From Lentihominibacter sp. (GTDB lineage Bacteria > Bacillota > Clostridia > Peptostreptococcales > Anaerovoracaceae): a stretch of DNA of 64,000 nucleotides. Within the stretch, counting starts at the first letter, position 1. The number at the start of each line of letters is the position of its first letter. The DNA lies in the NCBI GenBank assembly GCA_045638485.1, contig JAZUBM010000006.1, positions 79 to 64,078 on the forward strand, given 5' to 3'. The notes beneath the pieces were generated by a model, which ran no database searches, had not been told where the DNA came from, and was given only the letters and a program-made list of their open reading frames with translations. A program made the translations under genes and the position numbers. This document shows, piece after piece, positions 31,824 through 34,211 of the stretch.

Positions 31824-31879
31824 AAAAAATATGGATGTAGAGAAAATATTTCTTTACATCCTTTAATTTTTGTAGTATC

Positions 31880-31970
31880 ATATAGCAGGTAAGCCGCTCG
31901 GCAAAGGTTCTCAAATTCAGACAATGCAAGTAATTGCAAAGGCTGATACCTGATAAGGCGAGACTGGATA
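31880..31970 (+). ncRNA. L21_leader ribosomal-protein leader RNA
   Basis: GCAGGTAAGCCGC...GCTGATACCTG..AAGGCGAGACT directly upstream of rplU; matches the Firmicute L21 leader pattern. Confidence 0.75.
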
Positions 31971-31989
31971 GAGGAGGTAAAGAAACAAA

Positions 31990-32496
31990 ATGTACGCAAT
32001 TATTGAAACAGGCGGAAAGCAGTACAGAGTACAGAACGGTGATCAGATTGCTGTTGAAAAGCTGGGCGTTGAAGCTGGCGAAACAGTAGTATTTGACAAA
32101 GTTCTCGTAGTAGGCGAAGGTGAAGGAGTAAAAGTAGGTGCTCCATACGTTGAAGGAACTACAGTAGAAGGTAAGGTAGTAGAAAACGGTAAGGGCAAGA
32201 AGGTTATCATCTTCAAGTACAAGGCTAAGAAAGACTACAGAAAGAAGCAGGGTCACAGACAGCCATACACTCTGGTAGAAATCACTGCTATCGGCGGAGC
32301 AAAGGCACCTGCAGCTAAGGTTGAAGAACCTAAGCAGGAAGTAGCAGCAGAAGAAGTTAAGCCTGCAAAGAAGCCATCACTGAAGTCAATGAAGAAAGCA
32401 CAGCTCATTGAATTCGCTAAGGAAAACAACATCGAAATCGATGAAAAGGCTACAAATGCAGTAATGATCGAAACTATCGAAGCTGCTCTGAAATAA
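31990..32496 (+). CDS. rplU: 50S ribosomal protein L21 with a ~65-aa C-terminal extension
   Basis: [22 protein letters not shown]; the reading frame continues past the canonical end (~aa 102). Confidence 0.96.
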
Positions 32497-32555
32497 GAAT
32501 TTTAAAAACAAGAAACTTTAATTCAAATTTGAAATAGCAAGGAGGTGTCTGGTCC

Positions 32556-32816
32556 ATGGCAAGTAAGAAAGGTGTAGGAAGCTCGAAGAACGGTCGTGAT
32601 AGTGAGTCGAAACGTTTAGGCGTTAAGACAGGCGACGGTCAGTTCGTAAGTGCTGGAAGCATTCTGGTTAGACAGAGAGGAACTAAGTTCCACCCTGGTA
32701 ACAACGTTGGAATCGGCGGAGATGATACATTATTTGCAATGATTGACGGAGCTGTTAAGTTCGAAAGATATGACAAAAAGAGAAAGCAAGTAAGCGTATA
32801 TCCAAAAGAAGCATAA
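32556..32816 (+). CDS. rpmA: 50S ribosomal protein L27 (no N-terminal propeptide)
   Basis: [30 protein letters not shown] and GGDDTLFA; in-frame TAG at 32535 upstream. Confidence 0.98.
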
Positions 32817-32873
32817 GTAATTCGAGCCCCTAATGAATATTAGGGGCTTTGTTTTTCAAAAATAGTTAAATGA

Positions 32874-34211
<1,338 letters not shown>

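What the first reader, a model, noticed from the sequence alone, without database searches (positions are those of the whole stretch)
32293..32496. Ribosomal protein L21 fused to an extra C-terminal helical (Rho-N/HeH-like) domain
Seen: after the canonical end (...VEITAI, ~aa 101) comes an Ala/Lys/Glu/Pro linker and a compact ~40-aa segment, [39 protein letters not shown], with the L..M...L...AK...I......K/N..LI..I pattern of Rho-N/HeH/SAP-like nucleic-acid-binding helix pairs. Codon usage looks like a highly expressed gene throughout. Inference: a lineage-specific ribosome-surface appendage that could bind RNA or DNA (nascent mRNA, its own leader, or RNA polymerase coupling).
Basis: partly seen in the sequence, partly recalled or inferred. 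Interest (0 to 1): 0.55.

Follow-up and report, generated by a model that had tools for sequence, protein, structure and literature searches.

The report
Ribosomal protein L21 with tethered HeH domain
In one family of gut anaerobes, ribosomal protein L21 carries a conserved Rho-N-type helix-extended-helix domain on a flexible leash, and sister genera carry the same module on NusA and on S1, so it looks like a shared docking tag for the gene-expression machinery whose ligand is still unknown.

Summary
rplU (31990-32496, 168 aa) is one open frame with three parts: a canonical bL21 core (aa 1-101), a low-complexity Ala/Lys/Glu/Pro linker (aa 102-128), and a 40-aa terminal domain.

AlphaFold2 folds the terminal domain confidently as helix-extended loop-helix. 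Its best structural matches are the T4 EndoVII C-terminal domain, SAP domains, Rho residues 1-43 and LEM. The protein itself misses Pfam's Rho_N threshold, but 41 of 119 of its database homologs match Rho_N at E<=0.01. A profile of the tail also finds genuine Rho N-termini.

The tail is under purifying selection: 58% pairwise identity across 25 genomes against 63% for the core, and pN/pS about 0.19. The linker varies freely between 14 and 72 aa.

The tail is restricted to the window's own family, probably Anaerovoracaceae. It was found in 108 of 149 good genomes there, and in none of the other families sampled in the order or class.

The new result is that the same domain subfamily also ends NusA (at least 9 genomes) and IspH-S1 (2 genomes) in sister genera. 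Its presence does not track Prp loss or Rho presence.

What the domain binds (nucleic acid or a protein) is inferred, not shown. I rate it a new variant of a known kind, of moderate interest.

The parts
31853..31881 (+). sigma-70-like promoter candidate (TTTACA-17-TATCAT) just after the recA terminator
   Evidence: Consensus scan only, 10/12 matches.
31883..31975 (+). L21_leader-like RNA (RF00559), below Rfam's threshold
   Evidence: cmscan 26.4 bits against a gathering score of 36, E 0.049, model positions 1-77/77.
31990..32292 (+). bL21 core, aa 1-101
   Evidence: PF00829 E 1.7e-41, 140.9 bits; TIGR00061 126.8 bits against a cut-off of 43.7. AF2 gives beta strands E2-101.
32293..32373 (+). 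flexible Ala/Lys/Glu/Pro linker, aa 102-128
   Evidence: AF2 pLDDT is below 50 for aa 107-122. The length ranges 14-72 aa and the sequence is unalignable across 25 genomes of the family.
32374..32496 (+). HeH (Rho_N/SAP-like) domain, aa 129-168, plus stop codon
   Evidence: AF2 on 16 aligned tails: core pLDDT about 90, helix-loop-helix. VIA Z 6.7 EndoVII C-terminal domain, 6.3 SAP, 5.9 Rho residues 1-43. hhalign to the genome's own Rho N-terminus: probability 77.5%, E 1.9e-5. pN/pS about 0.19.
32556..32816 (+). rpmA (bL27) starting MASKKG, without propeptide; second gene of the operon
   Evidence: PF01016 E 5.8e-38. The same start type is seen in all 30 family loci read.
32824..32849 (+). intrinsic terminator-like hairpin ending the rplU-rpmA operon
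   Evidence: 11-bp stem with 5 GC pairs, followed by a T run.

Best explanation
Shown: rplU encodes a three-part protein. A normal bL21 core sits in the 50S subunit. A disordered linker of about 27 aa follows. It ends in an independently folding 40-aa helix-extended-helix domain of the Rho_N/SAP/LEM superfamily. The domain is selected at the protein level, is confined to one clostridial family, and is a portable module: the same subfamily is attached by acidic linkers to the C-termini of NusA and IspH-S1 in sister genera.

Inferred: the domain works as a tethered capture module, with a reach set by its 14-72 residue linker. It most likely binds nucleic acid. My first guess is nascent or free RNA, as proposed for Rho's N-terminal helix bundle; the second is DNA, as in SAP domains and the EndoVII C-terminal domain. 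Binding would keep ribosomal subunits, and in some genera NusA-bound RNA polymerase and S1, close to the same ligand. The ligand itself has not been demonstrated.
For: ORF and domain limits.

Fold:
- AF2 on the 16-tail alignment gives pLDDT 83.8, with helices at model residues 14-23 and 34-45.
- The full-length model shows the same domain behind a linker with pLDDT below 50.
- VIA-align against 48,161 chains: T4 EndoVII C-terminal domain Z 6.7; SAP 1zrj Z 6.3, rmsd 1.7; Rho 1a62 residues 1-43 Z 5.9, rmsd 1.8 over 42 aa; SAP 1h1j Z 5.2; emerin LEM Z 4.7.
- Foldseek on PDB and BFVD lists SAP, LEM, HeH/LEM and Rho_N-named proteins at TMq 0.62-0.84.

Homology:
- 1094 representative proteins match at E<=1e-3.
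- Of 119 scanned, 41 match Rho_N, 12 SAP and 12 HeH.
- The tail profile hits Rho N-termini in three family genomes.
- hhalign to the genome's own Rho gives E 1.9e-5 over 37 ungapped columns.

Selection: HeH pairwise identity is 58% against 63% for the core; pN 0.15 against pS 0.81.

Module on NusA and S1.

Distribution.

Role of Rho's helix bundle in recruiting nucleic acid: PMC12258240 and PMC12133298.
Against: - No binding data exist.
- The domain has a net charge of about -1 on L21 and about -3 on NusA, unlike typical basic DNA-binding SAP domains.
- The two basic residues that open helix 2 in Rho (KK or RK) are Thr-Asn in the conserved KATNA signature.
- Many HeH/SAP/LEM domains bind proteins instead: LEM-BAF, the MANF/CDNF SAP-like domain with BiP, and SLX4 SAP with MUS81 all appear among the structural matches.
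- All structural Z-scores are below 8, which the tool says is common for small helical models.
- The protein's own Pfam Rho_N score (15.9 bits) is under the threshold of 24.9.
Confidence: 0.45

Rival explanations
1. Protein-docking tag. The HeH domain binds a protein partner, either a common hub protein or another copy of itself. This would tether 50S (L21), 30S (S1) and RNA polymerase (NusA) to that partner or to each other, for example to couple transcription with translation or to cluster ribosomes.
For: - The same module sits on three different components of the expression machinery.
- The domain is slightly acidic and replaces Rho's basic helix-2 cap with a conserved Thr-Asn.
- Protein-binding HeH relatives (LEM-BAF, CDNF/MANF-BiP, SLX4-MUS81, PIAS1-p53) are among the best structural matches.
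- Near-invariance of exposed residues among close relatives fits a specific interface.
Against: - No partner has been identified.
- Most genomes carry the module on L21 only, so heterotypic NusA-ribosome bridging cannot be the general role.
- Rho is not required: the tail is present in G076 and G004, where no Rho hit was found.
Confidence: 0.3
2. Intra-ribosomal role. The tail folds back onto rRNA or a neighbouring protein of its own 50S subunit and helps assembly or stability, perhaps compensating for other changes in these small genomes.
For: - Lineage-specific extensions of ribosomal proteins commonly pack on rRNA (general knowledge).
- The L21 C-terminus tolerates other appendages in the same family, for example an AKKP-rich tail in G074.
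Against: - The same domain on NusA and IspH-S1 cannot serve a 50S-internal site.
- Linker length varies five-fold (14-72 aa) and its sequence is unconstrained, which suits a leash rather than a fixed path.
- About a quarter of family genomes lack the tail.
Confidence: 0.1
3. No present function. The tail is a neutral, recently captured (perhaps phage-derived) HeH cassette, or is removed after translation.
For: - Very many homologs are small phage-like proteins.
- 41 of 149 family genomes do without the tail.
Against: - pN/pS is about 0.19 while synonymous sites are saturated.
- Conservation equals that of the L21 core across 25 genomes of the family.
- The tail is retained in 56 of 84 genera.
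- Seven of nine NusA tails form an old, well-supported clade.
Confidence: 0.05

Closest known systems
N-terminal helix bundle of transcription terminator Rho (Pfam Rho_N PF07498; PDB 1a62 residues 1-43)
   Same: Same helix-extended-helix fold (Z 5.9, rmsd 1.8 over 42 aa). In-register, ungapped similarity of 38% to this genome's own Rho N-terminus. The tail profile finds Rho N-termini in related genomes.
   Different: In Rho the bundle is N-terminal and packed against an OB fold. Here it is C-terminal, stands alone and sits on a disordered leash of a ribosomal protein. The basic pair at the start of helix 2 is replaced by Thr-Asn. The Pfam gathering score is not reached.
Eukaryotic and viral SAP / LEM / HeH domains (Pfam SAP PF02037, HeH PF12949; e.g. 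1zrj, 1h1j, emerin LEM) and the C-terminal domain of T4 endonuclease VII
   Same: Same fold and size, and the same hydrophobic pattern. They are often terminal modules on flexible linkers that dock a larger protein to DNA, RNA or a partner protein.
   Different: Sequence similarity is only marginal (SAP E 0.12). The host proteins are different. This domain is slightly acidic, whereas DNA-binding SAP domains are basic.
Extended bL21 of Alphaproteobacteria (NCBIfam NF008916/NF008915, PRK12278-type L21 proteins of 216-223 aa)
   Same: An L21 core followed by an Ala/Lys/Pro/Glu-rich low-complexity C-terminal extension. The window protein aligns to model positions 1-139.
   Different: The score is 121 bits against a cut-off of 193, and the alignment stops in the linker. 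Nothing in those models aligns to the HeH domain. A comparable HeH-less AKKP-rich tail occurs in one family genome, G074.
C-terminal acidic repeats AR1/AR2 of E. coli NusA (own knowledge)
   Same: A small helical module appended to the NusA C-terminus that mediates extra contacts of the elongation complex. This is analogous to the NusA-HeH forms found here.
   Different: AR1/AR2 are helix-hairpin-helix repeats, not HeH, and they are not shared with ribosomal proteins.

Membership tests
bL21 (Pfam Ribosomal_L21p PF00829; TIGR00061) | Profile match above the curated cut-off over the whole domain | tested here: met
   PF00829: 140.9 bits against 27, aa 1-101 to profile positions 1-99/99. TIGR00061: 126.8 bits against 43.7.
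bL21 (Pfam Ribosomal_L21p PF00829; TIGR00061) | Conserved gene context: rplU-rpmA followed by obg, preceded by an L21 leader | tested here: met
   rpmA lies 59 nt downstream and obg at 32883. The leader-like RNA scores 26.4 bits, below Rfam's 36.
Rho_N (Pfam PF07498) | Score at or above the gathering threshold (24.9 bits) | tested here: not met
   15.9 bits for the tail alone and 14.2 bits for the whole protein. Only helix 1 aligns (profile positions 2-20/43). In contrast, 41 of 119 homologs match at E<=0.01, best 4.8e-14.
Rho_N (Pfam PF07498) | Helix-extended loop-helix fold superposable on Rho residues 1-43 | tested here: met
   AF2 core pLDDT about 90. 1a62_A: Z 5.9, rmsd 1.8 Å, 42 aa aligned to chain residues 1-43. 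Caveat: Z below 8 is common for small helical models.
Rho_N (Pfam PF07498) | Detectable sequence homology to genuine Rho N-termini | tested here: met
   hhalign of A2 against the genome's own Rho aa 1-60: probability 77.5%, E 1.9e-5, 37 ungapped columns. The A2 profile hits Rho N-termini of G035, G431 and G449 at E 1.8e-6, 4.3e-5 and 2.6e-4 per genome; rescored against those loci's ORFs alone, E 3e-8 to 4e-6.
Rho_N (Pfam PF07498) | Placed N-terminal to Rho's OB-fold RNA-binding domain | tested here: not met
   The domain is at the extreme C-terminus of bL21, NusA or IspH-S1, with no OB fold after it.
SAP (PF02037) / HeH (PF12949) / LEM superfamily | Family-level profile match | tested here: not met
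   SAP E 0.12, 12.5 bits against 23.9; no HeH or LEM hit for the window protein. 12 of 119 homologs match SAP and 12 of 119 match HeH.
SAP (PF02037) / HeH (PF12949) / LEM superfamily | Two helices joined by an extended loop, about 35-45 aa, superposable on solved members | tested here: met
   1zrj Z 6.3, rmsd 1.7; 1h1j Z 5.2; 7ndy LEM Z 4.7. Tho1 and MKL1 SAP at TMq 0.62-0.65. BFVD 'HeH/LEM domain' proteins at TMq 0.7-0.8, probability about 1.
SAP (PF02037) / HeH (PF12949) / LEM superfamily | Binds DNA, RNA or a specific protein partner | not testable with these tools
   Needs EMSA or anisotropy, pull-down, or multimer modelling.
Alphaproteobacterial extended L21 (NF008916 / NF008915) | Score above the equivalog cut-off, with alignment through the C-terminal extension | tested here: not met
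   121 bits against 193, and 110 bits against 281. The alignment ends at aa 141 or 137.

The most novel reading that the evidence does not exclude
The HeH module is a family-specific address tag shared by bL21 (50S), S1 (30S) and NusA (RNA polymerase). It docks all three to one ligand: the nascent transcript, the nucleoid, or each other through HeH-HeH contacts. That would be a previously unknown way of organising or coupling transcription and translation in a Gram-positive lineage where NusG-mediated coupling is thought to be weak.
Probability: 0.2. Interest if true: 0.8.

Novelty: new variant of a known kind. Interest (0 to 1): 0.55.

Why it matters
Ribosomal proteins rarely gain whole folded domains in bacteria. 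Here a Rho-type HeH domain was added to bL21 and has been kept under selection in most of one family of gut and oral anaerobes. The same module was also grafted onto NusA and S1.

Three host proteins sharing one tag give a direct handle on what the tag recognises. If the ligand is the transcript, DNA or RNA polymerase, this would be a natural tether between ribosomes and the transcription apparatus. It would also be a testable case of how transcription and translation are organised in space in Firmicutes.

The domain is only 40 aa long and folds on its own, so binding tests are simple.

Tried and rejected
- **RpoZ+tail (P0020) and L1+tail (P0068) fusions.** Rejected as chimeric assemblies of short contigs. 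P0020's RpoZ part is only 42% identical to this genome's RpoZ, while its tail and linker are 95% identical to this L21.
- **PDB sequence search** with the tail profile found nothing at E<=10.
- **ESM Atlas** gave no usable hit.
- **Foldseek E-values** never reached 0.001 because the model is tiny. I relied on TM-score, rmsd, VIA Z-scores and the consistent identity of the matched folds.
- **Link to Prp loss.** Rejected as uninformative. Prp was found in only 7 of 149 family genomes, and none of the 30 rplU-rpmA loci read has room for a prp gene between rplU and rpmA, tail or no tail.
- **Link to Rho.** Rho was found in 143 of 149 genomes, and two tail-bearing genomes had no hit.
- **Membership in the alphaproteobacterial extended-L21 models.** Below the cut-offs.
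- **Literature.** Searches for L21 with Rho_N, SAP or HeH and for lineage-specific extensions found no relevant paper in the held library.
- **Core pN/pS.** Inflated by ungapped slicing across small indels, so only the HeH value is used.

Full report
**1. What is in the sequence**

A single ORF at 31990..32496 (+) encodes 168 aa.
- Pfam Ribosomal_L21p matches aa 1-101 end to end (E 1.7e-41). TIGR00061 agrees.
- The finding's interval 32293-32496 is aa 102-168 plus the stop codon.
- The gene lies in a compact operon:
  - recA terminator at 31833-31861
  - promoter-like site at 31853-31881
  - an L21_leader-like RNA at 31883-31975 (26.4 bits, under Rfam's 36)
  - rplU
  - rpmA at 32556-32816
  - a terminator at 32824-32849
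  - then obg
- The quoted tail sequence is present as written.

**2. The tail is a linker plus a folded domain**

AlphaFold2 on an alignment of 16 tails gave mean pLDDT 83.8 and about 90 in the core. The model has a short turn, helix 14-23, an extended loop 24-33 and helix 34-45.

The full-length model shows the beta-rich L21 core, a segment with pLDDT below 50 (aa 107-122), and the same helix pair at aa 136-145 and 156-167 with pLDDT about 80. No contact between the tail and the core was predicted.

**3. Fold identity**

An all-against-representatives structural search (48,161 chains) ranked these matches:

| Match | Z | Detail |
|---|---|---|
| T4 endonuclease VII C-terminal domain | 6.7 | |
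| SAP domain 1zrj | 6.3 | rmsd 1.7 |
| Rho 1a62 residues 1-43 | 5.9 | rmsd 1.8 over 42 aa |
| SAP 1h1j | 5.2 | |
| CDNF SAP-like domain | 5.1 | |
| Emerin LEM | 4.7 | |

- Foldseek on PDB listed the same folds at TMq 0.62-0.78.
- Foldseek on BFVD listed phage and giant-virus proteins named HeH/LEM or Rho_N at TMq 0.7-0.84 and 28-36% identity.
- These scores are modest in absolute terms because the model has only 46 residues. Even so, the matches agree on one superfamily.

**4. Sequence homology**

The window protein alone misses the Pfam thresholds: Rho_N 15.9 bits against 24.9, with helix 1 only, and SAP E 0.12.

A profile of the 16 tails found 1094 representative proteins at E<=1e-3 among 1.84 billion.
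- Most are small proteins with the domain at the C-terminus.
- Many look phage-like, and some have 2-5 tandem copies.
- Of 119 scanned, 41 match Rho_N, 12 SAP, 12 HeH and 12 SAP_new25.

The same profile picks up genuine Rho N-termini in three related genomes. hhalign to this genome's own Rho aa 1-60 gives probability 77.5% and E 1.9e-5 over 37 ungapped columns at 38% identity.

So the domain belongs to the HeH/Rho_N/SAP superfamily. It forms its own subfamily, marked by the pattern [LI]K.MKK..L...A......[IV]...KAT[NK]A.

**5. Selection**

Across L21 proteins from 25 genomes of the family:
- Mean pairwise identity is 63% for the core and 58% for the HeH domain.
- The linker ranges from 14 to 72 aa and cannot be aligned.
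- For 13 closer genomes, the HeH codons give pN 0.15 against a saturated pS of 0.81, a ratio of about 0.19.
- Among close relatives the last 40 aa are nearly invariant.

**6. Distribution**

- Order level: in 301 genomes from 12 families, L21 was found in 293. Among the matches listed, alignments reaching aa 165-168 occur only in the window's own family. Elsewhere L21 ends at about aa 101-106.
- Class level: in 399 genomes from 76 families and 219 genera, the tail profile hit only the five genomes of that family.
- Within the family, among genomes at least 90% complete: 108 of 149 genomes and 56 of 84 genera carry the tail.
- Names attached to database hits (Mogibacterium sp., Candidatus Copromorpha) suggest Anaerovoracaceae. 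The genome handles themselves are unnamed.
- Some family members have a plain 103-aa L21. One (G074) has an AKKP-rich tail without an HeH domain.

**7. The unexpected part: the module is shared**

In the same family, the domain also forms the extreme C-terminus of two other proteins.
- NusA: G070, G101, G073, G430, G040, G414, G437, G060 and G363.
- The IspH(LytB)-S1 fusion protein: G059 and G425.
- In every case it follows an acidic linker.
- Pfam confirms NusA_N+S1+KH, and LYTB plus four S1 domains.
- Several of these genomes also have the L21 tail: G040, G414, G101, G059, G425, G073 and G430.
- In genus g61 (G060, G363), only NusA carries it.
- Seven of nine NusA tails form one clade (support 97/98). 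This points to one old transfer onto NusA rather than recent copying. The tree rests on only 44 columns and is otherwise unresolved.
- This genome has the domain once, on L21. Its NusA stops soon after KH2.

**8.

- Prp is absent from this genome and was found in only 7 of 149 family genomes. In the 30 rplU-rpmA loci read, no prp gene lies between the two genes. All 30 L27 genes read start M[AS][ST]KKG.
- Rho is present here (460 aa) and in 143 of 149 family genomes. Two tail-bearing genomes, one of them a single contig, show no Rho hit.
- Neither trait separates tail-bearing from tail-less genomes.

**9. Mechanism**

Shown: a folded HeH module on a flexible leash, under selection, attached to three components of the expression machinery.

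Inferred: it docks them to a common ligand. I favour nucleic acid (about 0.45).
- Rho's helix bundle is described as recruiting or channelling nucleic acid to the OB fold (PMC12258240, PMC12133298).
- SAP domains and the EndoVII C-terminal domain bind DNA or RNA.

A protein ligand is a serious rival (0.3).
- The domain is slightly acidic.
- It has Thr-Asn where Rho has two basic residues.
- Several structural neighbours are protein binders.

An intra-ribosomal structural role is hard to reconcile with the NusA and S1 versions. A neutral appendage is hard to reconcile with the selection signal.

**10. Novelty**

No paper in the held library describes an L21-HeH, NusA-HeH or S1-HeH architecture. 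Absence from that library is not proof of novelty.

The fold is known, and so is the phenomenon of lineage-specific ribosomal extensions. What appears new is this architecture and its sharing among bL21, NusA and S1. I rate it a new variant of a known kind, with interest 0.55.

The scan's earlier notes on this window (missing Prp and L27 propeptide; the L21 leader) agree with what I found. No look-alike was recorded on other DNA.

Noticed in passing
window 32497-32600; family loci L001-L040: There is no prp gene between rplU and rpmA, and L27 starts M[AS][ST]KKG without a propeptide in all 30 family loci read. Pfam Peptidase_Prp was found in only 7 of 149 family genomes; none of the 30 loci read has prp between rplU and rpmA. 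Prp loss is a trait of the whole family.
   Followed up: yes
window 31883-31975: An L21_leader (RF00559) match covers the full model but scores only 26.4 bits (gathering score 36), so it is a divergent leader in front of the extended rplU.
   Followed up: partly
L037 (G074:C2), L21 ORF of 174 aa: One family member's L21 has an Ala/Lys/Pro-rich, histone-H1-like C-terminal tail with no HeH domain. G034 (L040) combines a 72-aa AKKP-rich linker with the HeH domain. The L21 C-terminus seems to tolerate appendages.
   Followed up: partly
L053 (G442:C14:391800-393200): A 263-aa frame with a hydrophobic, probably membrane-spanning N-terminus ends in a divergent HeH domain (E 1.9e-5 to the tail profile). 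This is a further host protein for the module.
   Followed up: no
L050 (G007:C2, frame from 1693): A frame of about 557 aa begins with an HeH domain (E 3.4e-8 against that locus's ORFs) followed by an acidic, low-complexity stretch; it runs off the end of locus L050. G007's Rho is on another contig, so this protein is unidentified.
   Followed up: no
proteins P0122, P0140, P0149, P0154, P0160, P0161, P0235: Metagenomic proteins carry 2-5 tandem copies of the same HeH subfamily. Many small phage-like proteins have one C-terminal copy. This suggests phages are a large reservoir of the module.
   Followed up: no
proteins P0020, P0068, P0123, P0151: Short metagenomic contigs give chimeric or frameshifted 'fusions' of the L21 tail with RpoZ, L1 and out-of-frame L21. 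These are assembly artefacts and could be mistaken for new architectures.
   Followed up: yes
family Rho genes: Open frames around Rho range from about 357 to 760 aa across the family. This implies variable insertions between the HeH bundle and the OB fold; this genome's Rho has an acidic insert of about 50 aa.
   Followed up: no
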